Shown here piece by piece: positions 12,697 through 63,863 of a stretch of 64,000 nucleotides of DNA. The notes beneath the pieces are model-generated. The model ran no database searches, was not told where the DNA came from, and saw only the letters and a program-made list of their open reading frames with translations. Position 1 is the stretch's first letter, and each line of letters begins with the position of its first letter. A program made the position numbers and the translations under genes. The stretch lies in assembly GCF_009914755.1 (NCBI RefSeq), contig NC_060926.1; one strand, 5' to 3'. The stretch is from the human T2T-CHM13v2.0 reference genome, Homo sapiens.

Positions 12697-12735
12697 CTTC
12701 TGACAGCCTGACCACCACCTTCCCCTCATCTTCCT
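12697..12735 (-). CDS. TNS1: Tensin 1 39-nt microexon, EEDEGKVVVRLSE
   Basis: Long pyrimidine tract ending cttccctcag|AG GAA GAT; donor GAA G|gtaagt; phase 1-1; peptide recalled from the canonical TNS1 protein. Confidence 0.92.
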
Positions 12736-22000: not shown

Positions 22001-23794
22001 GCCACTGGGTCACCCTCAGAACCTCTAGGGCCAGCCCCTACCCCAGCAGGAGGCCGTGTGGCCAGAGGAAGAAAGGAAGAGAAGCTCCCAGGAGGCTGAG
22101 AAGGCTGGGGTACCCTTATGACAACAAAGTATCTTTAGGACCCTAACACCCTATGTTCAAGGAGCCCTGGGCGTTCTCTAAGGGCTGCTTCATACACGGG
22201 CATCAGGCCTTCCCCACAGCCCTGCCAGGATGAGCAGTTACCCCAGCCCCAGGGTTCCACACAGGCCCCCAGACCTGAGGAGCAGGGCACCAGAGCAGCC
22301 CCCTTCCCAGGGAGGCGTCACTCTTCTGCCAGGACAGTGCTGTGCTGGACAACAGCTCACTCCAAGGCTCCCCTAGCGTGAGCCAGACTGGAGGCAATTA
22401 ATCCCCTTCATCTGACACACACACGCACACACACTCACACGCACACTCGCACACCCTGCAATTCTGGGAGCTGTAGCCCTGACACAGACCGATACATGTA
22501 CTTTGGCAAAGCACTGCTGCCCACCACCCCTGGATCACGTGACGAGTACCCTGGTGTCAGGCTTCATGATGTGCCTCCTCTGCACCCCCCAGACCGGCCA
22601 CTGCCACCCTCACAGCCCCAGCTCTTCTTTCCAGTCTTCCGATTTCCAAAAGACTGGATTCCTCAGGTCCAGGTAGCAGGGCTGGGTGTCCGACAGCATG
22701 CCTGGGGCTCCAGAAGCGAGGGGATCCGGGAGGCCACCTGCTGGGCCAGGGTGCCAGAAAGCCACACGGCGATCACACTAGCAGCCCTAGGGCAAGCCAT
22801 GCCAGCTCCCCTTAAGGCAGGCCCACCATCCCAGAACCTGCCCCTACCCAGGCCCAGCTGAACACTACACTCCCCACCACTGGGCTGAGAGAAGGGCAGA
22901 GGAAGAAGAAAGGAGGGAGGGGCGGTTGAAGGGAGCAGTCTGCTAGAGCCATCTCCTGATCATCCCTGGACTGGGAGAAGAAGGGACCATGGAGGCACCA
23001 GATAACTGACATTGGGAATCAACAGTTCCCATTGCCCCTAGGCCTTTTCCTGGAGCTGCTCAGGGGCATGGTGTAGGGCAGGCCTGAGCATGGCATCTTC
23101 CCTGACCCAGCCTCCAGTGTCAGAGGAGCAGGGGAAGGAAGAGGTGATTCCCTGGCCAGGGCTCAACGCCTAAGGGCCTGCGTGTCCCAGAGGCCAGGGG
23201 TAGATGTTAGTGGACGGCATCATTCTCAAATGAATTACTGTGACCCCAGTGAAGCATCCACAAGGTCCAGGGCATGTCAAACCACCGTGCAAAATACACA
23301 ACAGGACAGGACTATCATCTGTCCACTTCTCAGACTGGGAAATTGAGCTCTAAACAGTTAAGAAACTTGCCCAAGGTCACAGAGGTGGTCTCAGGCAGGG
23401 CCAGGACCCCAACCCAGGGCTTCTGACTCTTGGCCATGGGATCAGAGATTAGGAGTGGGACCAGAGGGGGTACGCTGTCCCCAGGGTGTGCCATGCTCTA
23501 GAGTGGACAGAGCAGCAGGGGCTGGGGCACCACTCTGTGTTGTGTCTGGTGGCCCCATGCAAAGCTCAGCCTGGCTCCTGCCGAGACCTAGCCCTGCAGC
23601 CCAGGCAGTCTGGCCAGGGTGGCCGGAGTGCTGGACTGTCCAGAGCCCTCCTGAGCACCCTCATTGCAAAGGCCTGCATCTCCTCAGGGGACCCTGAATG
23701 TTAGTCTAGTTATTCCAGGCATTGTTCCCAGCAGGCAAGGCCAAGGCTAGCATGAGGCCCATGTTCATGCAGAAGTGAGCTCTGGCTCATGCAG

Positions 23795-24060
23795 ACAGGA
23801 GGGAGAGAGGGCTGGAGAGAGGAGGGATGGAGAAGTAAGTGAGGAGACAGAAGAGAGGATAGTGAGAAATGGGGAAGGAGAAGGAGAAACAGATGGAAAC
23901 CAGAGAACAACAGAAGAGGGAGAGGAAAAGACAGAGGAGAGAAGGAAGAAGGTGGGAAAGATTTGGAAGGAATAGCACATGAAGAAGGAGTGAAAAGAAA
24001 CTGATGCTCAAAAGTGGGCCAAAGAGCTGGAAAGGGAGAAGGGGGAAGGAGAGCCACCCA
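23795..24060. repeat. Long purine-rich (GA) low-complexity tract; CU-rich on the pre-mRNA
   Basis: ~260 bp dominated by G/A on the plus strand. Confidence 0.8.
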
Positions 24061-24061
24061 C

Positions 24062-24148
24062 CAGAGAGGGAGGAAGATTGGAGCCGGTGGAGAGGAGGGG
24101 GCGGGAAGCTGCCACTGTGTCCGATGCCCTGCAGCCTGGCGTTGTACG
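24062..24148 (-). CDS. TNS1: Candidate alternative TNS1 cassette exon (87 nt), AYNARLQGIGHSGSFPPPPLHRLQSSSLS
   Basis: Acceptor gggcag|CG TAC AAC; donor TCT G|gtgggt; phase 1-1, stop-free in the TNS1 frame; retains CpGs; preceded by a ~194-nt AG-free zone. Confidence 0.75.
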
Positions 24149-24289
24149 CTGCCCACCCCCCACCCCAGGGGAGCCAGCAGGGAGTGGGAGGCAGGAAGGA
24201 AGGGAGGATATGGGGCAAGGCAGGCACCCCACCAACAGCACAGGGAACAGATGGACATGGGAAACACAGAGAGTGCAGGGGACGGGGCA

Positions 24290-24338
24290 TTAAACAGGAC
24301 AAAACACAACAAAAACAAAGAGAAAATCAAGATTAGTT
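24290..24338 (-). promoter_or_regulatory. Distant branch point (ACUAAU) and polypyrimidine tract for the 87-nt exon
   Basis: Minus strand CCAACTAATCTTGATTTTCTCTTTGTTTTTGTTGTGTTTTGTCCTGTTT; no AG between here and the acceptor at 24149-24150. Confidence 0.7.
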
Positions 24339-24849
24339 GGTGTTCTGACTCTGGTATCTGGGCACACACTGGAGGGAGGTGGGGAAGGTATCAGACAGGA
24401 AGAGAGGGGGATCCAAGGTCCTGCTTCTCCAAGAGGCAGATGGACCTCCTGCTGGCCAGCACCACAGCGTTTCCCTCTCTTCTAACCCCAGGGTGGAAGC
24501 AGAGGTGCCATCGTGGGACCAGGAGAATTCACGCATCCCTCACCTGCTCCCATAGGCAGCAGGCCTGTCCCTGGACCACCCATCTTTTCCTGGGCACCTG
24601 CCTCTCCCTGGACCCAGGTAACACACCCAGCCTGAGCCCAAGGGTCACCCTCTCTCACACCCTGGCTCCTTACCACAGCCATCTGAGTGATCCTCTTTCC
24701 TGGGGAACCCCTTGTGCTTTTCTGCTCTGGCCCCCAGCTTCTGGTCATCACCAGAAAAGTCCTTAAGATGAACCTTCTCAGATGCACTAGAAGGACCTGC
24801 TATGTTATCCTTTCCTTGCCCCTTGTTGACTTCTAACCCACCTTCACAC

Positions 24850-27660
24850 CACAGGGGCCACAGGAGTGGCCAACATTGCCCCTGCCCTGGCCCCCAGAGT
24901 TCAAGCTATGTTACCTTTCCTCTCCTTCACAAGCTGCTCCATGCCAGTTCCTATGCTGGTTCCCTCCTCCTGTCTGTAGCCTTGGAATGTGGGAGGTTCC
25001 AGGACTCCATCCTTGGGACCTCTCCTTACCTGTCCTCAACCCCTCGGTGACATTGCCCAGTGCTATGCTTAATCTGGTATGTACACGTCAACAATTCCCA
25101 TATCTCTAAGTTCCAGCCTCTTCTCCTTAAACTCCTGACTCATTTATCCAACCACTGCAGATGTTTCATGGTCATCTCAAACTTAATGTGTCCAAAAGTC
25201 ATGTTTCTAGTGTTCCCCTGAAACTGCTCTTCATAAATTGTTACCCATCTCAATAAAGAGCAACTCCATTCTTTAGTTGCTCAGGCCCCAGACCTAAGCG
25301 TTGTCTCTGACTTTTCTCTTTCTCTCTCATTCCATGTGTAATCTATCAGTAATCTTGTTGGCTCTACCTCCAAAATATGTCTAAAATCCGAGCACTTCTC
25401 CCCTTTCCATGGCCACTGCCCAGATCAATAGCAGCAGCCACCTAACTGCTCTCCCTCCTTCCATCCTGCCCACCCTGGTCAATTCAGAACAAGTCAGATG
25501 ATGTCACTCTTGGGCCCAAATCCTTCCTAAGGCTTCTCATGCCACACGGAGTAAAAGCCACCATTCTTACAATCACCTCAAAGACCCTCTGTAAGCTGTC
25601 CCTGTTCCCATTTCCTCTCTGAACTTGTGTCCTGCTATGCCTCCCTTGATCACTCTACTCCAGCCATGCCAGGCACACTCCTGCCTCGGGGCCTCTGCAC
25701 TTGTTGCTCCATGGGGCTCATCTCTCGCTGCCCAGCCCTGATCATCCCATGTAAAGTGCAGCCAGCCACCCCCTACCTCTCACTGCTTTATCTCAATGGC
25801 ACGTATCACCTATCTGACATATCCTATGTATATGTGCTTATTTGCTCAGTATCCATCTCTGCTGTAAGGGCAAGGATCTTTATTTGCCACCATTTTCACA
25901 AAGCCTAGACTGGCAAGCAGCACCCATTAGAAGTTCATGTTGAATCGAATGATTGAATGAGCCTTCAACTCATCTCCTATTTTCAGAACAAAATGTAAAA
26001 AAAAAAAAACACAAGAGTTTTCACTTCAAGCTCCCAAAGCTTGACATCAATATTTCCCTCTATCTTTATCTATCCTTTATTCTAATTTCATGAAGAGGTA
26101 TCTCACCTCCTGGTTGAGCCTAATTTACCTACATGGGCTCCTAGGCCTGTCCCCTCTTACCTCCTTAGAGACCTTATTCTATCAACTTCTTTCTTTCTCT
26201 TCTTTTTCTCATCCTTCCTCCCCCCATGTCCAACCTACTCCCCTCCTCTTCTACATACAAACATTCTCATGACTCTTATATTTACAAAAAAGTTCCCAAT
26301 CACTCACTATCCTCTTTAGCTACCACTCTCTCCTCTCTTATCACAAAACCACTGAAAAGAGTACTTGGCTTGCTGTCTTCACTCCTTCTCCACTCATCCT
26401 CAATCCCCCACAGTCTGGTTTCTGTCACCAACACGCACTAAAAATATGCCTTTGATGTTTTACACAGGGCTGCCTAATTTGCAAGCCCAGTGGATTTTTC
26501 TCAGTCCTCCTCATGATCTCTTCAGGCTGACACTGCTAATCTCCTGCCCTTCCTCCTTGAAACCCTTTACCATCTTGACTTCTATGATGACATGCTGTCC
26601 TGGTCTCCTGCCACCACCCGAACACTCACTCTCAGCCCCTTTACAGCCTCTACCTCCCTTCATGGCCATTCCATCCTAAGTTCTTTTCTCTCCAAGCCCT
26701 CTGACATTGAGATCTCACATACACCCAAAGCTTTAACCATCACCTTTGTGAGAATGATTCCAAAACCTGTAGCTCTTCCTTTTCTTTCACACTCAATTCC
26801 AAAGTTCAGCTGCCTTCCATATGTCTCTCCCTGGAGGCTCCACTCTCCCCTCAAACTCAACATGTCTAACACCAAGGCTTCATCTTCCACCCAACGTCCT
26901 CCTCCTGCCTTCCTGCTTGTTAACAGAACCATCATTCTATTTCTATTCATGGAGCTCAGAATCATTTTTGATGATCCTTCTCCCTCATCCGCTCCAGCCA
27001 ATCAACACATAAGTGCATTGGTTCTACCCCCACAGTATCCACTGCATCATCTCTTCATTTGCATTCCTATGGTCAGCACCCTAATCCAGCCCCGCACCAC
27101 TTAGGCTATCTAATAAGCTCCTATCATCTCCTGGCTCAAAGTCTCTCCCATTTATTGTCCTTCCTGCCCAGACCCACCAGACACATCATCCTGAACCTCA
27201 GCTCTGGTCATGGCATGTTCCCCCCATGAAACCACAGGAATGGCTTCCTACATTGCTGCCAGGTAAGATGCAAGCTCCTTAGTCCGGTATTTAAGATCAT
27301 CCAGAGACAGACCCCAGGCTACCTATCCCGACTGTCACTCACACAGACCATATGTTCTCAATCTACTTGCCATTCTCCAAACATTTTCTGTGCTCTCCTG
27401 TCTTCACTGTGAACCCTCTCTGCCCAGTGATCCCGTTTACTTTCAAAATCCTATTCCATCTTCCAAGGCTCAGTTTAAAACCACACTTAACACTGCCTTC
27501 CCCATCACTAGCTGACAGCAATCGCTTCACCTCTCTCCTGCAGAGCTTTCTCCTTATCTCTCTTATTACAAAAGACTATTTTAAAGTTCCAGTTCTTTTT
27601 TCCCCCTATTAAACTCTAGACTCCTTAAGGATAAGATCCATATCTGATTTCCAACATGTA
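24850..27660 (+). mobile_element. L2 LINE fragments (at least two adjacent old copies)
   Basis: catctcaaacttaatgtgtccaaa, gcaactccattcttt...gttgctcaggcc, ctcaaactcaacatgtctaa, and a gaatgattgaatga 3' end at ~25950. Confidence 0.75.
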
Positions 27661-27744
27661 TTGAAATCTCCACCTCTAGAGACATCTGAGATCAGTCCAG
27701 CCACAGAATCAGGGACATAAGATAACTCAGTTGGACTCTCCAAC

Positions 27745-27935
27745 TCTGACTCTTATTTCTTTTTCTTGTCTTATTGCACTGGCTAGGACATCCAATACAA
27801 TGTTAGATGCAAGTGGTGATAACAGACATCCTTATTTTGTCCCTGGCTCTAATAGGAACGCTTCCAATGCTCCACAGGAAAGTGTGATGTATGCTATAAA
27901 TTTCTGGTCCCTACCCTTTATCAAATTAGAAAACT
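27745..27935 (-). mobile_element. Old L1 (L1M) ORF2 fragment
   Basis: ttatttctttttcttgtcttattgcactggctaggacatccaatacaatgtt...gtggtgataacagacatcctt is typical antisense L1 text. Confidence 0.75.
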
Positions 27936-30326
27936 GCCCCTACCTTCTCCTCTACAACTTAAGCTGGAATAAGGCACAAGGGTGATTGGATCAAAGTGGA
28001 ATAAACCAGGGACTTGAGACTGAGGTATGGAGGACAGCCAATGGGGAAAAGGCAGACCTGGGGGAGGAAAGCCAGGAGAAACCAGATCAAGTTCATGGCC
28101 ATGAAGAGGTTCTCCCACAGATCTGAGCTTCCTAGGTTACTCATGTCAAAGTGTATGTTCCAGCTTCTTACGGCAGAGATGTAGACAGAGCAGAAAGAAG
28201 TAGTGCTGAAATCTATCTTCCCTGCCTCCCAGACTTTTCCACACATTGATCTTGTCTGTCTGCCTTTATCTACACAGGCACTGCAGATACCCTGAAAGGC
28301 TACTAAGGAAGTTACTCATGCAGGACCTGCTGACATAAATTCTGTCATAATGACAGGGCTTGAACCAAAGAGGCAACTTCATAGACCTGGGAGCCAAATA
28401 TAAGTGTCCCCTCTATACATTTCATCCCTTCTCTTGAGTCACTCCCAGTTGATGGAGGAAATGGCAACAGGGTTAGGGAATGGGAACATTGTGCCAACAG
28501 TATCCTTCCCTATCTATGACTTCATGGCAGCCAAAGCCTGAGAGGCTACAGAATATGGAAGTTGACAGTCAAGCCTTCGAAAGCTGGTAGGAGAGAAAGG
28601 GCTAAAAGGCAGTCCACTACAAGATGGGCATCCTCCCAGGGCCATTAGGGTTATGGCCTCCTCTTGAGCAAGCTCCAGGAGAGCTGCATGGAAGGGTTCT
28701 TGTAGGGGAGGAAATGTATTCTGCTCCCCCAGAGAGAAGGCTCCTGGATCCTGCCCCTCATTAGACTAGCGTGTCACTAATCTTTAGGCCACCACTCCAA
28801 CCTTGCAAAATATTGGGAGAGGAATTAAATTCCCAGGGAATTCAGAAAGCCCCATCCCTCTCACCTCAAAAAAACCAAGAAGAAAAGGATCTCTGCTGAC
28901 AAAGCCAGGGGGGTATCTTTATCTCAGGGGCCCAGATGTGGGAGAAGGCAGAAGTCAAAGCCCATATGGACCACCCATGGAGCGTTTCATCCGAGGTTAA
29001 GAACTGCCCATCCTTTGTTCCGATGCTCAGGTAAAAGGAATTGTTACTGCTAGGCCAGCTCTCTATGGGAGGTGAGGCTGATTGCCAATTTCCATGGTGT
29101 AAATACTCCTGCAATGGCCAATTTCAAGCTATTATACCAATAGTGGAGCTGGGGACTCTGCTCTGCTCTGAAGTATAGGAGCAGGGAGCCTGTGTCCCCA
29201 CACCAGGTCCTGAGCCAGCTGGCCTGCCCCAAGCTGCTTCCCTAAACCCACGGTCCATCTCCAGGGAGGGTGTTTCCTTCCCTCCCTGCAGCTGGCATGG
29301 TGACTCAGCTTCCCCTAAATTTAGGAAAAGGGGTGGAGGACAGAGACAGCTGCCCAGGCTCCTCTCCTCCTCGCTGAGCTCCCACCACCCTGTCAGCTGA
29401 GGGGCTGGCACAAGGTCCACCCAAATCCACAGTCTCTGGTCCACCCCTGTCTGGGCTCCACCTCCAGAATAAAGTCACCCAACAGGTTTTCCTGCCAAGT
29501 TCAGCCACCCTTGTGGAATGGGCATAGGCTTAGACCAGTGGGAAGGGAACCTCGCAGCTGTCTCTCCCAACATGGCCCCAGACATGCTGTCATTTCTTGC
29601 CTTTGTCTCCCCAAAAGCTCTTCTGAGTGTCCCACTTTCCTCTCTCCCAAAAGAGAAGCCCACTCTCTGATAGGAAAAGGAGCTTTGTCTCTCAGCACCT
29701 ACTTCCCATACAGGGCTGGTCCTCAGCAAAGACTAACAGGAAAACTGACTTAGAAGGGGAACCTTGGCCTCCCCGCCCCAGCAGATAGAGCCTAAGGGCT
29801 TGAGGATACCCTCTCGGACTCTTTCATGGCCTCTAGGAGCGGGACCTAAGAGGGAATTTGAGTCTACAAAGGCCTCCCTCCAGCCTTCTCCACGTCTCCC
29901 CCAAGGAACTAAAGTCTGAGGACAGACAGCACGACAGGCAATTGCAGAGTCTCCTCTGTGTCTAGAAAGTCTGTACTCCAACCCCAAAGTCACCACCTCC
30001 TGGAAGCTTTCCCTGACTGCCCTAGGTGGTAAGCTTTGCTTTCCCAGGCTCTGGGATCTTGGTCCCACCTCTGTCACCGTACACATTACTCTCTAATGAA
30101 ATCATCTGTCTGTGTATCTGTCCGCTCACTAGACTGTAAATTTCTTGAGGGCAGGAATTGCTTGACATTGAACTTTGAAACTTGGTGTCTGGCTTGGTGC
30201 CTATCAGACAATGAATGCAGGAAGGGATAACTGGCTAGCATATAGGCTCCTGAGAGCCTCCTCCCACCAGTGAAAGCAACATCTGCTTAGGGGTCATGGC
30301 TGGACCTGCACCTCCCCCCAGCAAGA

Positions 30327-30336
30327 CCAAATAAGG
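30327..30336. promoter_or_regulatory. CArG box (SRF consensus) CCAAATAAGG
   Basis: Exact CC(A/T)6GG match ~37 bp from the giant-exon donor; a second match CCTTAAAAGG lies at 37452-37461. Motif match only. Confidence 0.35.
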
Positions 30337-30372
30337 AAGGGGTAGAAGGAGTCAGGACTGAATACCTCTTAC

Positions 30373-31024
30373 CTGCTACCCTGTGGGCCACCAGCCCTTC
30401 TAAATTCAATGGCTCCTCCTCTGGAGTCCGGGAGGGGTCTGAAGTCGCTTCCTTTGGTGAGAGCAGAGGCTGAGCAGTGAGGCCAGGGAGAGAGGCTGGG
30501 GGTTGCTGAGGCCCTGGAGGGCTGTGGGTGGTCGGAAGGAAGGCAGGCAAGGAGGAAGAGGCTGGGCTCTTTGAATGGAAATCCTGGTTAGGCCCAGCCA
30601 AACATGGCTGATAGTCATAAGGTGAGTAAGACCTGCCAGGAGGGACAGACTCCAGAGAGGCCCGTGGGGCTGGCTCAGGGGTTCCCAACGAATGCCCACT
30701 GGGGATATAGCCAGATCTGGACTGGGTCAGTGGATGGGACTGACGGGAGGATCCAGAGAGGGGCTGGGAGGAGAGTGGAGAAGCCCCTGGCCAGGCCCCG
30801 GGGACACTCTGGGACTTGTGTAGTGGGGCAGCAGCGGAGGCTGGCTCCAGGTCCAGCATCAGCATATTGAGTGTTTCGATGGACTGTTCAATCTCCTGCT
30901 GGGAGGCTGCTCGCGGGAACTCAGGGAGACTGGGGATGGGGGTCTCTGCCAATGGCTGAGGGCTGGGCCTGCTGGCTACAAGACTCTCCAAGTGGGCTCT
31001 TTCCTGCTGGCGTGGAGGTGGGCG

Positions 31025-31057
<33 letters not shown>

Positions 31058-31950
31058 TGAATTCAGTCCCCTTTGCACAGCCTCCCGGCTGCTTCCCCCT
31101 CGGACCGGAGCTGGGGGCAGCTGGGGTTCAGCTTCCGAAAAGGATTGAGAGCGGAACATACCGCTGGGGTCATGGGCATAGTGGGAGGTGGTCACTGGCT
31201 GTGGCCAGGCTGGGTGGGGCCCCTCCCTCTGGTAGCCAGCTAAACCCTCCTGTGCAGAGTAGGAGGGCCGCATGGGGGCCGTGTGGCCAGCATGGGCAGG
31301 CCCCGCCCGGCTGGCAGACTCGTAGGGGTAGCCTCCTCCATTGACCATAGGCTCCATGGGGTAGGACTTGTCCAGACCGTTGGTCAGTGGGGACAGGGCC
31401 TCTGGGTAGCCCCCCTCACTGGTGTTGGTGACCCCGTCCAGAGAAGAGAGTGTGCCCATGCTGCCCGCACTGTGACCATCCTGGTTTGGCAATTCATCGT
31501 CCAGGATGTCTGTCTCCCGCTCAGATGCTAACGCCCCACCATTGACATGAACCTGGGCTGGGACAACGTGGCGTCCAGAGGAGGGCACAGCCGAGCCCCC
31601 TGCTGGGCGGGACCTGAGGTGCTGGGTGTGGTACATGGCGCCTTGCTTCTCTCGCTCTAAGCCAAAGCCACTCAGCAGGCGGTCCAGCTCCCGCTTCTCC
31701 TGGGGACTCAAGGCAGCAGTGGCACTGGAGGCCCCGGGGACAGGCTCGTCGGTCTTGTCGGTCTTGGTGGAGGCTGTGGAGTTGCCCGAGTCGCTGCTCA
31801 CAGAAAGCGTGTGTTCCACGTGGTTGGGGGTGGCCGACAGTGTAGGACGTGTGGCATTAACAGCCCCGGTGCTGCCGTGCAGGGAGTCTTTCTTCTTCAC
31901 CTTAGCATACAGGCTCCCATCTAGTGGCCCCTGCGTGTGTCCCACCACCT
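30373..31950 (-). CDS. TNS1: Tensin 1 giant coding exon (1578 nt), [21 protein letters not shown]...[11 protein letters not shown]
   Basis: Acceptor tcccttgcag|AG GTG GTG; donor GCA G|gtaaga; phase 1-1; lies within the 566-aa ORF; contains Q9 and [16 protein letters not shown]. Confidence 0.97.
31028..31054 (-). repeat. TNS1: Uninterrupted (CAG)9 coding repeat (polyQ)
   Basis: Nine ctg triplets on the plus strand, translated as QQQQQQQQQ. Confidence 0.95.
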
Positions 31951-33445
31951 CTGCAAGGGACAGAGCCGGAGGGGAGACAACAGACAACAGACATTAGCGG
32001 GAGGCAGGGGTATCATCCACTCTGCCAGAGAAAGAAGCTAAGAGCTCCCATGCCCTGCATCCTAAAACCTCCTCTCACCACCCTGAGGTGGGGAAAAGGG
32101 GAGCTGACAGAAAGACCTCTACCCCAGGCTTTGGGGCAGAGCCTCACCAACACTCAGCTTCAGGGCCGGGCAGTGGAGCCCAACACTGAGCAGGAAGTGC
32201 TGGGGGCAAATCGCTCCAGTCCCAAGCCTAGCTCTGGCATTTCACCAGCTTCCTGACCAGAGGCATGAATAACTCTCTGAGCCAGCCTCCTGGTCCATAA
32301 AATGGGGATAATAATAGAATCTGGTTGAACCATCTGAAATTGCCAATATTCATTAAATACACTGTGCTTTGAGTTTAAATGAGTTGACACATGACATGCT
32401 GAGACCAGTTCCTGGCACGTGATGGGAGTTCAACAGCTGGGAGCCCTAACCATCACCATTATGAGTATCTTTAATTCCTGAATGACCATTTCCAAAGCAT
32501 CCTCAGTCCCCTCCGCCACCCCATCTCAAAAAGTCTCACCCCTGCTTCGATGTCTGGAGTTCCCACTCTGGATTAGAGGCAGAATGCCAGGAGAGTAGCC
32601 ATTGCCTTGAATGCCCATAGAGGTATCAGCATGGACGGCCAGTCGCCCCGAGGATAGCCTTTGCCCACGGAAGCAGGGGGAGAACCCAGGAGGGCAGTAG
32701 GGTGCAGCAAAGGGCCCCACCATGCCCAAGGTGGTGGTGGCAGGGAGGCTGAAGGCAGAGCTGGGACTCTCTAAGACAAGCTTGCCCTCAGCTAGATTTG
32801 TCTCCAGCTCAATGCAAAGGATGTGATAGAACCATTCAGAGATACAATGTCATTCATGCTGCCCACTGCCACATTTCCAGAGGCTCCTCCCAGCTCCTCC
32901 CCAGCACTGCCCACTCCTGATGGACCCCTACCCCTCCACCAGCAAGCTCAGCCCATACCACTCAAGACTCCAGGAAAGGGACGCGGGTCCAGGGAAGGTA
33001 TGCCGGGCAGGATCACAGCAGGTCTGCAAAGACGAGCATCCTGATCCCACTGCTCTGAGCCAGCCCGGGGGCCCCTGAAGAACAGGCCAAGGTGGGGCTC
33101 AGCCAAGCCAACAGTCCCTGTGCCAGAGGGGACACGCTTTTCCTATGCTGGAGGATGGGGGGCATATAGGGTGCTGATGCAGGGGGTTCAGGGACTAGGG
33201 CAGGAGGGGAGGCGTCTTAGGGATCGTGAACACAAAAACAAGATGTCTTCATGGGGGAGAGGGTCCTCTTGTCTGCAGACAGCTCTGAGGACCCCCCTGA
33301 GCAACACTTTCTCTGGAAGGAAAAAGTGAGCGCTGGGTGGCTCGGGGCCAAAGGGCTGACTCAGGAATGAAGAACTTCCCCGCCCAGAGGAACTCAGTGA
33401 TTTCACACCCTGTACAGTCAGCAGCCCAGCCGCCAGCCCCGACAG

Positions 33446-38000: not shown

Positions 38001-41000
38001 GAAATGTCAGACCTTTTCCCAACAGGCCTCTGCCTACCTTCTGAAGCCTCACTTCCTTGTCCTCCATACCCAGAACACCCTCCACTCTACTCCTACTCAA
38101 CTCTTCATATGCTCTTTCCCCTCTGTGCATGCTGTTCCTTCCGTGCAATGCCCTTCCTCATCCTGCCCGTGAAACTCCCAACCTCCTGGGCAAATGCTTT
38201 CAGACTCAGTTCAAACTTCCCTGGGAAATTTCCCTTAATCTAACTTCTTCCCTACTGTCCTCCAGACTCAGGTAAACCTCTACGGTGCTCCTGTTGTCCC
38301 TTGTAGACATCTCTACTGTGACAACAGTCACCCACAGAATGGTCATTACTGATGTCCATGTCTGTCTTCCCACTTTGCTGAGAGCTTGTTGAGGAAGAGC
38401 CTTTATCTCTCTCTCTCTCTCTCTCTCTCCCTCTCCCTAGGGCCGGTTCCCAGACGGTGCCATCCACAATGTGGTCTGTGTGAATGATGCCTCTTGAAGT
38501 TCAATATGTAACCTGCATGGCTGTACAGAATGGCCCTAGAGAAGAGTGCTTGTTCCATAAATGCTTCTTGCCTTACACCGAGTAGCCGAGAAAGCTTTAT
38601 GTAGTTCTGTCAGCCATTGAGATACTCTTCTTTCACCACCACCCAGTGAAAAATCAGGGGTTCTAGGTGGACCCCGAGTTTCTCCCCAAAGGTGAGGGAA
38701 GAGAGTCAGTGCAGCCGAAACATGAAGACATGTATTCCTCATATTCTGCAGCAAAGGCTGAGCATGGTGGAGGTCCCTGAGCCAGAGCCTACCCCATGGC
38801 ATCCCCTACAGACCTCTCCAGCTACACTCCAGCCCAGTGGACATTAACTTCCCTAGACCCAGGACCCCTGGGAGATCTGGTGAAATAAGGGAGTTGATGA
38901 ACACCCCAAAAACCATCTGTGGATCCCAAGATACAACATATGCATCGAAAAGTTAGGGTGCTGTCTCTGGGGATCCTCTCTGTCACCCATGACTTGCATG
39001 GAGAATGCCAGGCTCCATCCAGGGGAAATGGGGCGGCACACTGAGTGGAAGCTTTGCGGCTGCGGGAGCCTAAGAAGTGGCTCAGGGTGCTCCACTGGGT
39101 TTTAACCTGCCAGGGGAAGTGATGTGAGGAAGGCATGAGGGTACAGAGGGCCCCGTGGAGAACCCCAGCATGTGGCTCCAGGAAGACCCCGACCTCCTGA
39201 AACATCCTGGCATTGGTGGCAGGGACTTCCTGGGGCTCAGTCTGTGACAGTCTTGGCCTCCACCCATGCCAGCTTCCCTTCCCACAGACAGCTGGGGATT
39301 GAGGCAGCCCTTTGTTCCCCACAGCCTGCAGCGAGCTCTGGAACTTTCTCAAGGGGAATGGGCTTCTGCAGGGGCTCTGAAGATCTGCAGAATTAGAGGT
39401 TGAAGAGAAATCCCGGAACCTCTGAAGGAGAGCCACACAGAGGAGACACAGCCTCTGAAACAGCAAAGAGGGCAGGTGCCAAGTGCAGCCCAGGAGACTT
39501 AGGTGCACGTTGGGAACACGTAAAAAGATTTTTTGGTAAAAAAAATTACCAAAGATTTTTTGGTAAAAATAGCTCCAGAGCCCACAACAAGCACAGGGCC
39601 TTGGAACCCTGTGGGCAGGGACAGACCAGTCCATGAGTGACAAATAGACACCTGTTTTTCTTTCCATTTAATAGCACACACCTTCAGAAAGTGAACAGGA
39701 GAGAACAAGATTTTTCTCAGGGCTGTGCTGTCAGTCTTGTCGCAGGTGGCTTTGTCCTCTAAGCAAGTGACCTCACCAGTGTCACCTACAAGCTTGCCTC
39801 TGGACCCAGGGAGGGTGGACCAGCTGGGCTTCTCCTGGCCACCTTCCCATTCTGCTGAGTCCAAGAAAAAAAGAGGGAGGCTCAAGGTCCAAGACCCACA
39901 CGGAGCCCAAATCTCAATGTCAGCCTGTGGCCTTGAAGATGGAGAAAGTCAGCTTCAGAATGAAATAAAAAATAGAGCCCCTCCCACCCACGGCTGCCTC
40001 TGCTGCTCCAGGCCCTCTGGGGGACAGCAGAACTGGGATCTCCAGGGCCCGGGAGGTTGGCTCAGCCAAGAGAGCTTTTTAAAAGCCCTGGGGCTTTTAG
40101 AGCTGAAGGGCCTTAGGGGAGTAGTTAATCCCCCTGCCCACCCCTCACTTTATAGGCTGACAATGAAGCTCAGCAGGCTCAGGACCACCCAAGGTCACCC
40201 GGCAAGGAAGTACAAAACCAACTCCTGGCTCCCTATTCAGTGCTCTTGTCCCTAATGCTGCTTCAAGGTGAAGATGGCTGGGGCTGGAGGCATTGGAAGG
40301 TGGACTCTCCAACTATGTCTGTGGACCCAGAACCACAGGACAACATAATATATGGTGCTTCTGTCAAGCGATGATGATAAATGTGTCCCCGGACCCTCCT
40401 TAGGAAGGACCCGTGGCAATTGTCCCAGGTATCTTCTTACTTGAATTCATACCATGCCCTCCATAAAAAGGGAGTAGGAGCAGAAAACCTGATCGTGACC
40501 TTGACTTCAGTCCCGAGAGACCAGGGGCCTGGAGGGCAAGTGATCTGCCCTGCCCTGGATGGCCCACGCCTGCAGGGCAAATGTGAATTCTCAGACCCAG
40601 CCTCCTGACTCCGGCCTGGCCTGTGTTCCCCCCAGCCTGAAGCTATAACCCGAGCCTGGCACTCCCACCCCTACCCTCAGCCTATACGGGCAGCAGATAT
40701 CACAGGCACACTCAGGATGGTAAAAATAGCTCCAGAGCCCACAACAAGCTGAAGTCCTTCTCTGCCAGGCCAGGGTGCCAGCCTGGGCACTCAGAGATCC
40801 CTGGCTAGAGGAGAGTCAAGCTGCCAAAATCTCTGCCAAAGTCAGGAGAAAGCCGTGAATGGGAGCCCACAGGAGGCCGGTGGGGAATGGTGAGCACTGG
40901 AGGTGCCCCAAAGCTCAGGCCAAAGATGCAGGGAGGGGGCGTCCTGAATAACATCTCACCAGAGCTATCCATGCATCCACCTCATTCCCTCTGCCAACCC

Positions 41001-41340
41001 CATTCGCGCACAAGACGAACCGTTACCCCCGCAAGACTTAGGACAACTCAGACACACGGCCCCCCCACCAACCCAGATACCCTCGCCCTGAAAGCTATGG
41101 CTCTTACGTGTCCCAGAAGCAAGTCCAGGAAGGGGACCACCAGGCCCGTCACATCCACATCAGACAGCAGCACAGCGGGCCACAGCCCCACTCAGCCACA
41201 AGCCCTTCCAAGGTGGGGTCGTGACAGAGCCTGCCCCTCCACACCCTCCCAGCACAGAAGCACGAGCACCCCAGCCCAGATCCAGCAGAAAGCCACACAA
41301 GAACACTCACAGGCAAAACAACTGCCCAGCAGACACTTAC

Positions 41341-41477
41341 CCTCTGGAGGGAGGGAGGGAGAGGGAGGAAGCGGAGGGAAGCCCGCTCTGATTTGATCCT
41401 GGTGCCCCAAGTTCCCAATAATTCCTACATGGCTGCAGCTCCAAGTGCTGTCTGTGTCCTACTCAAGCTCCCTCCGA
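41341..41477 (-). other. TNS1: Candidate non-canonical TNS1 exon (internal first exon or cryptic cassette); 5' boundary uncertain
   Basis: Donor CCAGAGG|gtaagtgt at 41341; possible acceptor cctcccacccctgacag at 41478; contains GCC ATG TAG. Confidence 0.5.
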
Positions 41478-41518
41478 CTGTCAGGGGTGGGAGGAGCCAG
41501 TGCCGCCTGCCTGCCCAT

Positions 41519-41520
<2 letters not shown>

Positions 41521-41550
<30 letters not shown>
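41521..41550. repeat. (AC)15 microsatellite
   Basis: Direct inspection. Confidence 0.95.
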
Positions 41551-41552
<2 letters not shown>

Positions 41553-41779
41553 CACTCCCTCCCTCCCTCCACTCTCCTGCACGCTCTCTCCCCAGCTCAG
41601 CTTGCTCTGCCTCACTCTGGCTTGTAGGAAGCCAGTGGGATAAAACTGTCTGTAATTTCAGCCAGCTGGGTCCCCAGGGCTTCACTTATCATCCTGCAGC
41701 TATGCCGTTCTTGAATGACATCACGGTGGCTTCCCAAGCCCTTCACTCCCACCGGCCGGGAGTCAGGAAAAGTGGCCAG

Positions 41780-41975
41780 CCCAGTCCAACTCCAGCCCCA
41801 ACCCCAGCCCAGCCCCAGCCCCAGCCCCAGCCCCTGCTCAACTCTCACCCAGCACAGTCTAGCCCAGCCTGGTCCCAGCACAGCCCAGCCCAGCCCCACC
41901 GGGTCCCAGTCCAGCCCAGCCCAGTCCCAGTGTAGCCCAGCCCAGCCCCAGTCCCAAACCCATGGCAGCCCCAGT
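41780..41975. repeat. (CCCAG)n/(CCCCAG)n repeat; (GGGCT)n on the transcribed sense strand
   Basis: More than 20 degenerate cagcc/cccag units. Confidence 0.9.
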
Positions 41976-42093
41976 GCCCTGAAGAGAAGCAGGGAGAGAA
42001 TCTGGGAGCAAAGTGAAACTGAGCCCCAAGCGGAAAGGCAGGGATGCAAGGGCCAGAGAGGGAGGGGAGAGAGGTCCTATGAGGGTATTGAGA

Positions 42094-42099
42094 TTTATT
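42094..42099 (-). terminator. Candidate intronic polyadenylation signal AATAAA
   Basis: Plus-strand tttatt ~350 nt downstream of the alternative stop codon; the downstream element is CU-rich rather than clearly GU-rich. Confidence 0.45.
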
Positions 42100-42446
42100 T
42101 CCCCAAATTTTCCACATTTTTTTTCCATTCTCAGCAAATGGAAGGCAGAACAGATGACAACAATTTTCCAGCTGCTGAACAATAAGGTGGAAATCTTTTT
42201 TTCCCTCTCTCTCCCCCTTTCCCCTCCACAGGGCAGAGTCCAGGAGCCAGAACACTTCCTTGGCTTGGAAAAGGAAAAAGAAAAAACCCCACAGGGTCCT
42301 GCACTTCCCAGAGGTGAACACAGGACCTGAATAGAAGGACTGGGGTGTCACCCAGGCAGGGCTCCAGGAGGGGACAGGAGCCCCAACATGAAGTTCTCAG
42401 TGCAAAGCTTTGGATTCTGGCTTGGCAACTTGACATTTTGGAGGGC

Positions 42447-42550
42447 CTAACTTTGGGAAGGCCAGTGTGTGTCTGGCCAGGTATATTGATCCTCCAGGCC
42501 ACCTGAGATGCTTCCAATTGACTGGCTATTGGTATTCTGTTTGTTCCCAT
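42447..42550 (-). CDS. TNS1: Alternative TNS1 exon: terminal form DGNKQNTNSQSIGSISGGLEDQYTWPDTHWPSQS*, or 48/99-nt in-frame cassette
   Basis: Acceptor atttccacag|AT GGG AAC in phase 1 after exon 63747-63863; phase-1 donors at 42503 (CAG|gtggcc) and 42452 (AAA|gttagg); TAG at 42447-42449; minus-strand AATAAA at 42094-42099. Confidence 0.7.
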
Positions 42551-44424
42551 CTGTGGAAATCATGAATAGCAGAGTATCACTTTTCAGAGTTCGCAATGCC
42601 TCACCCTCGTTCCCAACCACCCAGATCCGAGAGCCATGCAGCTGAAAGGCAGGTGAACGGCCCTCAAGTTCCCACCATTATCCTGATGTGCCCTGGAAAG
42701 TGCCAGGAGTCCCTAACTGATAATAAGACACCAAATCCCCACTCTTATTAACATGTTGTTTGTGACTTATTTGCATATCAATTGAATCTCCCAACCCAAT
42801 TCTCAGAGTGGACAGGAGGTGATCTGGGCTTTGCGGCCAGGCCAGTGGGAGCTTCAGCGACTGGTGTCTCCATGCAGAGGGCCCCAGTTAGTTTGCAACC
42901 CCAAAATGCTTCCACAGACACAGGCTTGCCCTGAGCTATGGCTACCCCATCCTCGTGCCCAGACCTTCCCAGCTAAGTTTGGTACAGCGAGATTGGGAGG
43001 GAAAGCCCTGCCAGGCACAGCCCAACTACTCCCTGTGTTTCCCCTCAGACACCTGAGCCCTCAGCCCCTCGCCATTTTCAGCACCCCTCTCTGGCTGCTG
43101 TTCTTTGAGGGTAAAGAAAGAAAATAAGGGGAAGAACAAAAATGGTACCCAGTGCCCTGTACCCTGGCCACTGACCTATCTTCACTGATGAGATAAAATG
43201 GGACAGCTCGGTGTCACAGACTTCAAAGAGACCACTAAAAATAAGGAGACCAGGGGAGGGGAAGCAGAGGGGTTCTATGCCTCAGGCTCCACCTGGGGAA
43301 GACCACAGTTTGGACAAACTATTGCAATTATCCTCCTACCTCCATAGAGTCTTCTAGAACTAACCAACAAACCTCGGGCTCTTGAAAGGTTTAAGGCACC
43401 CCAGTTCACCCACTTGTCCCCACCCCAACCAACCCACAACAGTATTAGCAGAGATTTTGTTTGCACGCAACCTTCATGTTTATTTGTCCATCTGAATATC
43501 ATCTACATTATTATTTTGTAAGTTATAAAAATAAACTTCATTTAACTTAAACTAGTTCTAAGCACAATATCCATGATGTCCCAGATTGAATGTGCAAAAT
43601 ACATACCTTTTTTTCCAATACACATCAAAATAAATATACCTAATATCAGTTCATATATAATTAGCAGTCTGACCATACTTTGGAACCTGAACCTTACTTT
43701 GGAAAACACTACCACACAATAGTTCCTGCCAGTGGCAACCCCATCTGATGGTTCTCCACTATCATCCAGGGGGACTAGCTATACTAGAAAGCCCCCAGGG
43801 AGTTTTATAAGAACCCCGATCCCCTGGCTCCACACAGAGGCAAAACTGTCTGGAATGGGGCCTGGGACTTTGAATTTGAAAATGCTCCCCAGCTGCAAAT
43901 AATAAGAGAGTCAGGTTTGGCAAAAACTGTTCCTAGCTGTACTCAAATTCTTCCAGGTACAGGGATTTTACTGTCTTCCTCCAAAAGCCCAGCTCATCTT
44001 TAGGGGGCCGTAACAGTGGATTTTAGCTCAACATAGGAAAAAACACCCTGGAGCCCTCTTTTCCACTAACTGGCCTTACAGTGCCCGATGGAGTGGGTCA
44101 GAACAAGCCAATCGCCCCCTCGCTAGAGCCCTTCAGATACTGAATGAGACGTGCCTGCCCTCCTGAATCTCCCCTTTGACAGGCAACCCCTCTCCCTGCA
44201 AGTCCCTGAGCCTGACATACTTTCTGGTTGCTTCTCTGCACTTGCTTCCAGTCGTTCTTTATCACTTTGAAGCAAGGGACCCACAAACAGCCCATGTGGG
44301 CGCTCTGACTTAAAAGAGGCACAACAGGCCTGTCACCTCCCATTTTCTGGAAACCATGCTTTTGTTAATGCAGCCTAAGATTATGCCTGGCCCTTCTCAT
44401 TCTCATCACTTCAGCATCTGCCAG

Positions 44425-48065: not shown

Positions 48066-50059
48066 GTGCAGAGGTGGGTGGAGGATCTGGGTGGGTATCT
48101 GCTTCCTTCCCCAAATAAGCCCATCTAGGGCTAGGCTGAAAGTGACTCACTTATGCAGAGGCCACCAAACCATGAAGCACAGGCCTGCATGGCAGACAGA
48201 AGCCAGGGCACCACCCTTGGGCCTTTCTGCCTTTGCATCACATGAGGAGCGCCCATCTGCTTCTCGAAGGTTCTCAAGCAATGTGCAGACAGAGAGAGGA
48301 AGGCAGGGAAGAAGGAGAGAGCTGAGAAGCTTTGAGCTTTCATATCAAAATCTGATCTCACTGCCCCTGGAGAAGGAGAAGAACACACATCAAAGAACAC
48401 TTTGCTGCTAACAATTTTTTTAAGCAATCAAAGGCATAAGTCCCAGATAAGCAGCCAGGGCATCGACTGGCTGTAAAGATGTAAAGATTGGGCAGTCTGA
48501 AGCTCCCCACATCCATCAACAGCTCTGTTGCTGCTTCCCAGGGCACAGGGAGATAAATGGCCCAGGGATTGAACAACTGAGGTCCAGTATTCTGGAGCCA
48601 GGAGTGTCTGAGGCAGGACACCCCAGGTCCCTGAGGGATAGTCTTGTGAGTGTAAATAATGCTTGAGCAAAGAAAGAGGGGCAGGAGAAAAGGGACTTTG
48701 GGGTGAGACTCCTGAGTCCCCTTTGCACAAGAATGAGCTAGGACCTTGTCAGAACCCTCTAGAAGTTGCCTTGTTTTCCCATGTCCACAAGCCATGGTCA
48801 CTCATCCTACCTAGACAGATGCGTGGAGTGGAAAGGTTCTTCTCCTCAACTTTCAGAAAATCTAGAAAATCTAGTCCTGGCACCTGTTCCTGTTACTCAG
48901 ATCCCCCAAAGGCAAGAGGGTTCTCCTGAATGTCAGACCTCCATCCTTCCAGCAGCAGCTAAAACTCACCTCTCCAACTCTGCCCCTAGATCTCTAACCA
49001 GCCACGGTGTAACAAACAGACCTAAAGAAAATGCTGCCTGGCTGCAGCAGCAGACTAGGAGCCAAAGAGCCAGAATTCTAAGGGGTGATTTTGGACAGGC
49101 CTCAGTTTACTCCACTGTGCAATGGCAGAGGGCAAGTATAGGTGATCCCTAAAGTCCTGTTTGGATCTGGATCCTCAAGGATACAACTCAGAGAAGATGC
49201 TCTACCAGGCACTGTTTGGATCCCAGAGCCCCTGGACTTGGCAGGCCTGTATCTCCTCTCCTGCTTGGACCTGCCCGGGTGGCTTCAGGCTCCAAACTTG
49301 TCTGAGGCTATTTCTGCAGCAGCCATGGAGTCCCTGAGGCTAGGACAGAAAAGGGGACTTACAGGAAGTCTGTAAACACACACCAGGCTGCAGAGGTTCC
49401 CAGGGCCATGCAGGGCAATCAAGAGGCTGATTTATTTTCATCAGTGAAATGCTGAAACTTAATCCCTGGAGCAAGCTGACCCGGCAGACAGCGGCAGGCA
49501 GCTCCTCAACCAGAGCAGAATTAGCTAGTCCGCAGCCTCTCAGGCCTCTCCACTGGGGCTGGCAGAGGGAGGGGACAGGGAGAAGGCTGGGGCTGGCCAG
49601 TTCAGCCACTGTGGCTCCAGATCCCTTGGGCTGGCCTCTCCCCTCCCCCATCACTGGCCTGCAAGGGTCTCCAGGACACAGGCACAGCATTGGGCAGAGC
49701 TGGACAGGCAGGCTTCCCACTTTAACTCAGTTCCTATTCCCTAGGTTCTCAAACCCCAACTGCATGGGGCAGCAGGGCAGGGCTCCTCAGGACTCCTACC
49801 CTTGTCAGAAATGGTGAGAAATGTTATGCTGAGAAATGGTGGGTGTCAGAATCCAAGCTCTACCCCTACCTGGCTGTGTAAGCATCAGTAAGTTACTTAA
49901 CCTCTCTGTGCTTGTTTCTTCATCTGTGAAATAGGAACAAGAGAACTCAGGTCACAGGAGAGTCATGAGGAGTACAAGAAATTATGGGTACCTAACAGTA
50001 TCTCACATATTGGGGGGTGCATATTAAAGGAGGTGGGCGGATAGATTCTCCTCCTCATC

Positions 50060-62800: not shown

Positions 62801-63746
62801 ATGGGGGTAAATCAGGAGGTTCTGCCTCTGGGAAGGGTCTCAGTCACCCCAACTGAACACAGATGGGTGATGGGCTGGACCATCCTGAAGGTCCTCCCAG
62901 CTCCAACATTCTGCAGTCCTACGACCAACTCAAGAAAAGAAGCTTGTGGCCAAACCCCAGGCAGGGCATCTCAAGAGTTCCTGGGCTCTGGGCATGCTCA
63001 CTTTCGGAGCCTGCCCCACGTCTCCTTACACATATGCAGATAGACCACATAAATAAATAGAATGCATGTAGAACTCTCAAGAGACGACCTGAGTTGCAGT
63101 GGACCATTTGACATAATGTTAGGTTTGTAGCTAAATTAAACATGTATTAATTTCAATTCTGCTGCTTTCTTTTCAAATTTCAGAGCCTATCAGTTTGTTC
63201 CCAGCTCTCAAACATTTTTGTTGGCTGTTGATGAAAGCTTGTAGGCCCTAGATCCTGTGCCTCTGTTCCTAGTACTCTGACCCCAGAGAACTCAGGCAGC
63301 AAGCCTGAAGAAACCCAACAGTGGGTTTAATACACATGTGACAAATGCTGTTTTTGCAGCACAGTGGGGGGTATCTCAAGCTCCACTCAAGGCCACATCC
63401 TCCAAGGAGCCTTCCCAGATCACTCCAGCTCTCAAAATCCCTCCCTGCCAATCCCAGAGAACTCACTGTCCACGGAACTTACTTGGCTGTAGCAACACAC
63501 TTCCACGATAACCCCCTTGTGGCCATTTTGCTGCCTTCTTTGGCTCTGTCCTCACTTTTATTTAATACATTCATATATGTGCCTTATCTTCCCCCAGTTA
63601 ACGGTGAGCTCTCGGAGGTACCTCACACTTCCCCTCTGCCTCCTCTCGAACCCAGATCTCTTGAAAGCAGGCCAAGAGAAGCAAGGTCATGTGAGCAGAG
63701 GCTGTGCAGTTTGGATAGGGGCTGGGAGCCACTAGGTCCCACCTAC

Positions 63747-63863
63747 CCTCCATGCCGTCATCTCGATGCCCACTGAAGTTGTCGTAGGAGTCCCAGCGGA
63801 TGAGGGGGTCAGAGGTGTTATAGTCCACAGACACGCTCGGCCCGTTCTCCAGGTGCTCCATGC
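63747..63863 (-). CDS. TNS1: Tensin 1 coding exon (117 nt), [39 protein letters not shown], just after the C2 domain
   Basis: Acceptor tcccacttag|GC ATG GAG; donor GAG G|gtaggt; [15 protein letters not shown] is conserved among tensins. Confidence 0.96.

What the first reader, a model, noticed from the sequence alone, without database searches (positions are those of the whole stretch)
42094..42550. Three-way alternative exon: 48-nt cassette, 99-nt cassette, or stop plus poly(A)
Seen: one acceptor at 42550 opens DGNKQNTNSQSIGSIS... in TNS1 frame. Both downstream GT donors (42503, 42452) are phase 1 and preserve frame; reading through the second gives AGT TAG, with AATAAA ~350 nt later. The ORF track shows only a different frame here. 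I recall a short TNS1 cDNA ending this way but cannot verify it. Inference: intronic polyadenylation yields a protein made of the PTEN-like PTP-C2 module plus a 34-aa tail, without talin, SH2 or integrin-binding PTB regions.
Basis: partly seen in the sequence, partly recalled or inferred. Interest (0 to 1): 0.7.

Follow-up and report, generated by a model that had tools for sequence, protein, structure and literature searches.

The report
Weak hidden last exon in TNS1
A long intron of the human adhesion gene TNS1 holds a splice acceptor, a short in-frame stretch, a stop codon and a poly(A) signal that likely serve as a rarely used early end of the mRNA (an ordinary kind of event); the proposed three-way switch is not supported, and the added peptide is not conserved like a working protein part.

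Summary
The anatomy is as described. The acceptor at 42550 is in TNS1 frame, GT donors follow after 48 and 99 nt, TAG lies at 42449-42447 and AATAAA at 42099. Ending there would give a 385-aa protein: intact PTP-C2 plus a 34-aa tail. It is not beyond chance. Both donors score below all 23 annotated TNS1 donors. Of 117 equal-or-better intronic AGs, 19 have AATAAA behind an in-frame stop, and a MIR-like repeat at 49923 mimics the whole pattern. None of 97 spliced mammalian TNS1 proteins carries the insert. Three orthologous ORFs show alignable single-copy DNA but no conserved protein. One has a 1-nt deletion inside the 48-nt part, none keeps the stop, and one lacks donor 2. Best reading (0.55): a low-usage skipped terminal exon (intronic polyadenylation), possibly already in cDNA records (recalled, unverified). 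A regulated three-way cassette is unlikely (0.05). No RNA, 3'-end or peptide evidence could be reached. Interest 0.2.

The parts
63747..63863 (-). Annotated upstream TNS1 exon (117 nt); its phase-1 donor would join 42550
   Evidence: annotation table
42551..42570 (-). Candidate 3' splice site (AG at 42552-42551), weak pyrimidine tract
   Evidence: score 3.35, matched by 117 of 2398 intronic AGs; residues around it kept in 3 of 3 orthologous ORFs
42450..42550 (-). In-frame coding stretch of the candidate last exon (34 codons counting the junction codon)
   Evidence: single copy in the genome; 25/34 and 23/34 aa identity in two orthologs
42497..42505 (-). Candidate donor 1, CAG|GTGGCC (would give a 48-nt cassette); weak
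   Evidence: a 1-nt deletion upstream of it in ortholog P0002 would make the cassette 47 nt
42446..42454 (-). Candidate donor 2, AAA|GTTAGG (would give a 99-nt cassette); very weak, overlaps the stop
   Evidence: not encodable at this place in ortholog P0124
42447..42449 (-). TAG stop of the short form
   Evidence: kept in 0 of 3 orthologs
42117..42124 (-). A8 run 18 nt before the hexamer (a second run, A7, at 42202-42196): oligo-dT mispriming risk for cDNA and 3'-seq ends
42094..42099 (-). AATAAA; predicted cleavage near the CA at 42081-42080; C-rich downstream, no GU-rich element, no UGUA upstream
   Evidence: the N-K residues read across it are kept in ortholog P0002
41341..41482 (-). Annotated exon of other TNS1 transcripts, about 610 nt after the AATAAA; no AG before it and a strong donor, so it looks like an internal first exon
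   Evidence: annotation table
42561..42780 (-). Octamer (42776), two Fox-like and GATA motifs upstream, plus an in-frame ATG at 42563 in weak context (rival: enhancer or first exon)
   Evidence: the Met is kept in 3 of 3 orthologs
30373..31950 (-). Annotated downstream TNS1 exon (phase-1 acceptor); first in-frame Met is canonical residue 457
   Evidence: annotation table

Best explanation
The stretch 42550 to about 42080 is likely a rarely used 'skipped terminal exon' of TNS1: the donor at 63747 would at times splice to the weak acceptor at 42550 and the RNA would be cut and polyadenylated after AATAAA 42099, which is predicted to give a 385-aa PTP-C2 protein with an unconserved 34-aa tail. 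Shown: sites, frame, stop, hexamer, intact domains upstream, lack of protein-level conservation. Inferred: that the acceptor and poly(A) site are used; that splicing across the 31.8-kb intron normally wins; that the message escapes NMD because its stop is in the last exon; that a product would keep PP1-alpha, DLC1 and actin contacts of the N-terminal region while losing IDR, SH2 and PTB. The two internal GTs are most likely bystanders, not regulated cassette donors.
For: Frame, stop and canonical hexamer line up. The C2 domain (PF10409) ends 46 residues before the junction, and the N-terminal part of a bat homolog matches PTEN structures at E about 1e-39. The DNA is single-copy and not MIR-like. 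Residues spanning the acceptor are kept in 3 of 3 orthologous ORFs, and those spanning the hexamer in the 1 that reaches it. Skipped terminal exons favour long introns and 84% have AAUAAA/AUUAAA (PMC5928244, passages). Mouse Tns1 is named among genes with intronic polyadenylation after Srsf10 knock-down, intron not given (PMC8989518, passage). Two papers call Q9HBL0-3 canonical, so other UniProt isoform numbers exist; that one of them is this short form is my recall only.
Against: 19 of 117 equal-or-better intronic AGs have the same acceptor-stop-AATAAA layout. The poly(A) site lacks UGUA and a GU-rich downstream element, and A8 and A7 runs could fake cDNA ends. No protein with this tail was found among the 120 listed of 1004 TNS1 hits or in three direct searches. 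The stop is kept in 0 of 3 orthologs; in P0002 the frame is open past the hexamer. TNS1 is absent from the readable supplements of two IpA papers, but these hold only differential subsets.
Confidence: 0.55

Rival explanations
1. Pseudo-exon: the acceptor, donors and AATAAA are a chance arrangement in a 31.8-kb intron, used only at noise level; any cDNA ending here is a rare or misprimed product.
For: 2 of 117 comparable acceptors show the full three-way pattern, the other inside a MIR-like repeat. 13 AATAAA lie on this strand of the intron. 0 of 97 spliced TNS1 proteins carry the insert. Ortholog substitutions are mostly one base away (8 of 9 and 10 of 11) and include radical ones such as W>G and Q>L.
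Against: The DNA is unique and alignable in three other species with the acceptor residues kept.
Confidence: 0.25
2. Regulatory DNA of the internal promoter zone: the conserved stretch is an enhancer or a minor first exon (in-frame ATG at 42563, spliced at donor 42503), and the AATAAA would stop upstream transcription just before the annotated start near 41482.
For: A perfect octamer at 42776 (0.04 expected per 350 nt), Fox-like and GATA motifs. The Met is kept in 3 of 3 orthologs, outside the query that found two of them. Several annotated internal first-exon-like exons lie in this intron (annotation). TNS1 has a proven internal promoter in the next intron (eTNS1, PMC12753235). Conservation without frame constraint suits non-coding function.
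Against: No CpG enrichment or TATA box; weak Kozak context; donor 1 is weak. The motif counts were picked after looking, and 4 of 5 conserved residues upstream is within what neutral similarity allows. No chromatin or CAGE data were reachable.
Confidence: 0.15
3. Regulated three-way hybrid exon: one acceptor feeds a 16-aa insert, a 33-aa insert or a terminal form, chosen by U1 versus poly(A) competition.
For: Both donors keep frame, and all three products are open. Donor 1 pairs with U1 better than 5 of 23 real donors. The 16-codon length is kept in 2 of 3 orthologs. Hybrid internal-last exons are a described class (PMC8769537, passages).
Against: Both donors score below all 23 real donors. 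9 of 117 comparable acceptors have two such donors by chance. There is a frameshift in a close ortholog and donor 2 is lost in another. 0 of 97 proteins carry either insert. Tail identity is 68-74% against 92% (minimum 79%) for the next 39 constitutive residues in 94 full-length proteins.
Confidence: 0.05

Closest known systems
Intronic polyadenylation with a 'skipped terminal exon' (as defined in PMC5928244, passages seen)
   Same: New acceptor inside a long intron, short ORF, stop, AAUAAA; predicted loss of C-terminal domains without NMD.
   Different: Usage is unshown; the site has weak auxiliary elements and nearby A-runs; TNS1 is not in that paper's readable differential tables.
Hybrid internal-last exons (HIT index; PMC8769537, passages seen)
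   Same: One acceptor with a possible donor and a downstream poly(A) signal.
   Different: The class is defined by junction reads on both sides. None could be seen here, and the donors are weaker than all annotated TNS1 donors.
eTNS1 / exon 1E (PMC12753235; abstract and passages seen)
   Same: A lineage-restricted TNS1 half-protein made from intronic sequence.
   Different: eTNS1 is the C-terminal half from a promoter in the next intron (846 aa, rejoining at about residue 878 by my arithmetic), with protein and knock-out data. The candidate here is the N-terminal half, ends by poly(A), and has no expression data.
PTEN-like PTP-C2 module (PF10409; PTEN, auxilin, TPTE2 and VSP structures)
   Same: The predicted product is essentially this module with a short tail, about PTEN-sized.
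   Different: The TNS1 PTP domain lacks the catalytic cysteine by two reviews, so it would act as a binding module, not a phosphatase.

Membership tests
Skipped terminal exon (IpA) | 3' splice site inside an intron, downstream of an annotated donor | tested here: met
   CACAG|A at 42550; score within the low range of real TNS1 acceptors (above 3 of 19)
Skipped terminal exon (IpA) | Poly(A) hexamer downstream in the same intron | tested here: met
   AATAAA 42099-42094; also true of 19 of 117 comparable AGs
Skipped terminal exon (IpA) | Auxiliary elements (UGUA upstream, U/GU-rich downstream) | tested here: inconclusive
   No TGTA within 100 nt; downstream 50 nt is 50% C and 30% T with no GT. 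These elements are common, not obligatory (general knowledge).
Skipped terminal exon (IpA) | Junction reads into the acceptor and a genuine 3'-end peak | not testable with these tools
   No RNA-seq or 3'-seq access; the supplements searched are partial
Hybrid internal-last / cassette exon | Usable 5' splice site(s) | tested here: inconclusive
   Canonical GT, but below 23 of 23 real donors on an approximate matrix; U1 energy puts donor 1 in range and donor 2 out of range
Hybrid internal-last / cassette exon | Inclusion seen in spliced products | tested here: not met
   0 of 97 proteins joining the two flanking exons carry it; limits: 120 of 1004 hits seen, 90% clustering, few primates
Conserved coding exon | Frame and stop kept across species | tested here: not met
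   Frame broken in 1 of 3 orthologs, stop kept in 0 of 3
Conserved coding exon | Amino-acid constraint like that of neighbouring exons | tested here: not met
   68-74% against 92% for the next constitutive 39 aa; compatible with 12-15% unconstrained base change; species of the orthologs unknown
Exonised MIR-like repeat | Similarity to interspersed repeat copies | tested here: not met
   A profile of 53 local copies finds 57 hits in 124 kb, none at 41900-43000; one genomic match only. Other repeat families were not tested.
Internal promoter / first exon | Capped 5' ends and open chromatin | not testable with these tools
   Only motif counts

The most novel reading that the evidence does not exclude
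This intron is a split point of TNS1. The poly(A) site at 42099 ends a PTEN-sized, catalytically dead PTP-C2 protein that could sequester PP1-alpha and DLC1. The promoter about 600 nt downstream starts a CTEN-like C-terminal protein from Met457. One gene would thus make its two halves as separate, coordinated mRNAs, echoing the proposed origin of PTEN and TNS4 by gene splitting (review passage).
Probability: 0.1. Interest if true: 0.6.

Novelty: new member of a known kind. Interest (0 to 1): 0.2.

Why it matters
If used at real levels, the short form would be a natural N-terminal-only tensin-1. It would keep the PP1-alpha and DLC1 binding C2 domain and the actin-binding region but lack the IDR that drives condensation and talin binding, and the SH2-PTB integrin anchor. 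It could act as a decoy in RhoA and adhesion control, and C-terminal antibodies and 3' probes would miss it. But intronic polyadenylation is common (4927 events in one atlas), the tail is unconstrained, and the form may already be catalogued, in which case the novelty drops to 'already known'.

Tried and rejected
eTNS1 exon 1E as the identity of this exon: rejected, it lies in the next intron and encodes 9 unique residues. The heart TNS1 variant Q9HBL0-J1: a different exon, window 12697-12735. MIR-like origin: no hit. Structured RNA: 0 Rfam matches at E up to 1 in 41000-43500. Paralogous copies: none. Mouse 'GLK' (3 models) and camel 28-aa (5 models) inserts at the same junction: the camel insert has no significant match in the human window; the 2-codon mouse insert is too short to test. 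Literature searches with no paper on this isoform: TNS1 + intronic polyadenylation (2 papers, neither gives this site), TNS1 + alternative last exon (0), Q9HBL0-2 (0), ENST00000310858 (0), six recalled identifiers or tail peptides (0), TNS1 + polyadenylation + truncated + intron (4 of 6 listed, one read, not relevant). Supplements: no TNS1 in those readable for PMC5928244, PMC8559711 and PMC8769537, but they hold differential subsets or little text. The PMC8989518 supplement, which may give the mouse Tns1 site, could not be read. Three older papers were not held. No structure or complex prediction was run; it would not bear on whether the exon is used.

Full report
Observation. On the minus strand, TNS1's 31.8-kb intron between the exons at 63863-63747 and 31950-30373 holds an acceptor, TTTCCACAG|AT, at 42550. 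Both flanking junctions are phase 1. In-script translation shows three open products: a 48-nt cassette (donor CAG|GTGGCC, 42503), a 99-nt cassette (AAA|GTTAGG, 42452), and read-through to TAG at 42449-42447. AATAAA starts at 42099 after a gap of 347 nt. Mapping the ten upstream coding exons from fetched genome stretches gives a 385-aa short form from the canonical start. Its KVEF falls at 299, as in the published PP1-alpha motif. PF10409 ends at residue 451 of an 1860-aa primate TNS1, about canonical 305, so the C2 domain is complete 46 residues before the junction.

Is it more than chance? I scored sites with approximate human frequency tables (recalled, not MaxEntScan) and benchmarked them on TNS1's own sites. 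The two donors (0.13, 0.18) fall below 23 of 23 annotated donors (1.04-8.76), and about 240 of 1789 intronic GTs do as well. U1 duplex energy is kinder to donor 1 (-7.3, better than 5 of 23) but not to donor 2 (-3.1, worse than all). The acceptor (3.35) beats 3 of 19 real ones and is equalled or beaten by 117 of 2398 intronic AGs. Among these 117, 19 have AATAAA within 500 nt of the in-frame stop, 20 have one frame-keeping donor, 9 have two, and 2 have the whole three-way pattern. The second, at 49923, has a better acceptor and sits in a high-copy repeat that looks like MIR (name recalled). The poly(A) site has no TGTA upstream and a C-rich, GT-free downstream stretch. A8 and A7 runs at 42124 and 42202 could misprime oligo-dT. 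Sequence alone therefore does not single this place out.

Spliced products. A search with the upstream exon returned 1004 proteins, of which 120 were listed. Of these, 97 join the upstream exon to the downstream one: 88 directly, 1 with one extra residue, 3 mouse models with a two-codon insert and 5 camel models with a 28-aa stretch that has no significant match in the human window. None carries the candidate insert. The other 23 end otherwise, 22 by reading through the 63747 donor; none has this tail. Direct searches with the tail found only genomic-type ORFs. The limits are real: the database is clustered at 90%, 884 hits were not seen, and few primates were listed, so a human minor isoform could hide as a cluster member.

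Orthologs. Three ORFs from unnamed assembled sequence cover the orthologous DNA. P0002 (11 member sequences; about 82-92% aa identity in three human frames, so probably a primate, an inference) follows the TNS1 frame to 'SQS' and then switches frame. This means a 1-nt deletion inside the 48-nt part. There both cassettes would shift frame, and the frame stays open past the hexamer, whose N-K residues are kept. P0123 and P0124 keep the frame, with 25 of 34 and 23 of 34 identities, but stop 17 and 3 codons later. P0124 cannot encode donor 2. Of their substitutions, 8 of 9 and 10 of 11 are one base away, and they include W>G and Q>L. A neutral simulation reaches this identity at 12-15% base change, while the next 39 constitutive residues are 92% identical (minimum 79%) across 94 full-length proteins. 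These two hits were selected for similarity in this frame, which inflates their identity, and their species are unknown. Reading: the DNA is single-copy, not MIR-like and perhaps mildly conserved around the acceptor, but the peptide, the stop and donor 2 are not maintained.

Mechanism. The best fit is the skipped-terminal-exon type of intronic polyadenylation: new acceptor, short ORF and AAUAAA in a long intron, with splicing and cleavage in competition and no NMD (PMC5928244 passages). I put use in at least some mRNAs at 0.55. That figure leans partly on my recall that a short TNS1 isoform with this tail is in UniProt or Ensembl, which I could not verify: searches for the recalled labels and tail peptides gave 0 papers. 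Two papers do use Q9HBL0-3 as canonical. Mouse Tns1 shows intronic polyadenylation on Srsf10 loss, at an unstated intron (supplement unreadable). A product would keep the inactive PTP domain and the C2 domain that bind PP1-alpha, DLC1 and actin (reviews). It would lose the IDR that drives condensation and holds the talin site, and SH2-PTB. A decoy role is conceivable but unshown; I would put a selected protein function near 0.1.

Rivals. Chance pseudo-exon (0.25). Regulatory DNA or a first exon (0.15): an octamer, Fox-like and GATA motifs lie 130-230 nt upstream, an in-frame ATG at 42563 is kept in all three orthologs, and an annotated first-exon-like exon starts about 610 nt after the hexamer; these motif counts are post hoc.

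Comparison and novelty. It works like an IpA skipped terminal exon. Membership needs junction and 3'-end reads that I could not reach. It fails the tests for a conserved coding exon and shows no inclusion as a cassette. It is not eTNS1 exon 1E, which lies in the next intron (PMC12753235 abstract and passages; preprint passages), nor the heart J1 exon. Papers seen: passages of PMC10592692, PMC8989518, PMC12753235 and its preprint, PMC12383349, PMC5928244, PMC8769537, PMC12154655, PMC9687257, PMC9462884, PMC13396368 and PMC10507764; supplement searches only for PMC8559711; no paper read whole. The boldest reading left open is that this intron splits TNS1 into a PTEN-like half and a CTEN-like half starting at Met457 (probability 0.1). 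Verdict: real anatomy, ordinary class, weak evidence of use; interest 0.2.

Noticed in passing
window 63747-63557 (-): Reading through the 63747 donor gives a 49-aa tail, a stop at 63600-63598 and AATAAA at 63562 only 36 nt later, with TGTA upstream: a composite-terminal-exon candidate with better poly(A) context than 42099. A named Myotis myotis protein (P0023, 435 aa) ends by the same read-through.
   Followed up: partly
window 49783-50028 (-): A high-copy repeat (MIR-like, name recalled) supplies a strong acceptor at 49923, two frame-keeping GTs, a stop and AATAAA, a chance mimic of the whole finding.
   Followed up: yes
window 41341-41482, 32959-33421, 32540-32864 (-): Annotated exons with no AG before them, two preceded by GT repeats, look like internal first exons. 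The 41341-41482 exon has only a Met-stop uORF, so its product would likely start at Met457 and lack PTP-C2.
   Followed up: partly
junction 63747/31950 in P0057, P0063, P0065; P0033-P0037; P0029: NCBI models show small lineage-specific changes at this junction: mouse G-L-K in place of E, a 28-aa camel stretch, and one extra Ala in Tamandua.
   Followed up: partly
window 42680-42780 (-): AT-rich patch with a perfect octamer, two Fox-like sites and GATA cores, possibly an unannotated enhancer.
   Followed up: partly
window 41770-41960 (-): G-rich pentamer repeats (GGGCT/GGGGCT) between the hexamer and the 41482 start; G-quadruplex-prone, could pause polymerase.
   Followed up: no
window 24062-24148 (-): This annotated 87-nt exon has no ATG, so it is not the whole of eTNS1 exon 1E, which must lie elsewhere in or extend within 19073-30372.
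   Followed up: no
annotation table: Only 1 in 100 of the window is listed as masked, yet a MIR-like profile alone finds about 20 copies at E up to 0.01 in the window.
   Followed up: no
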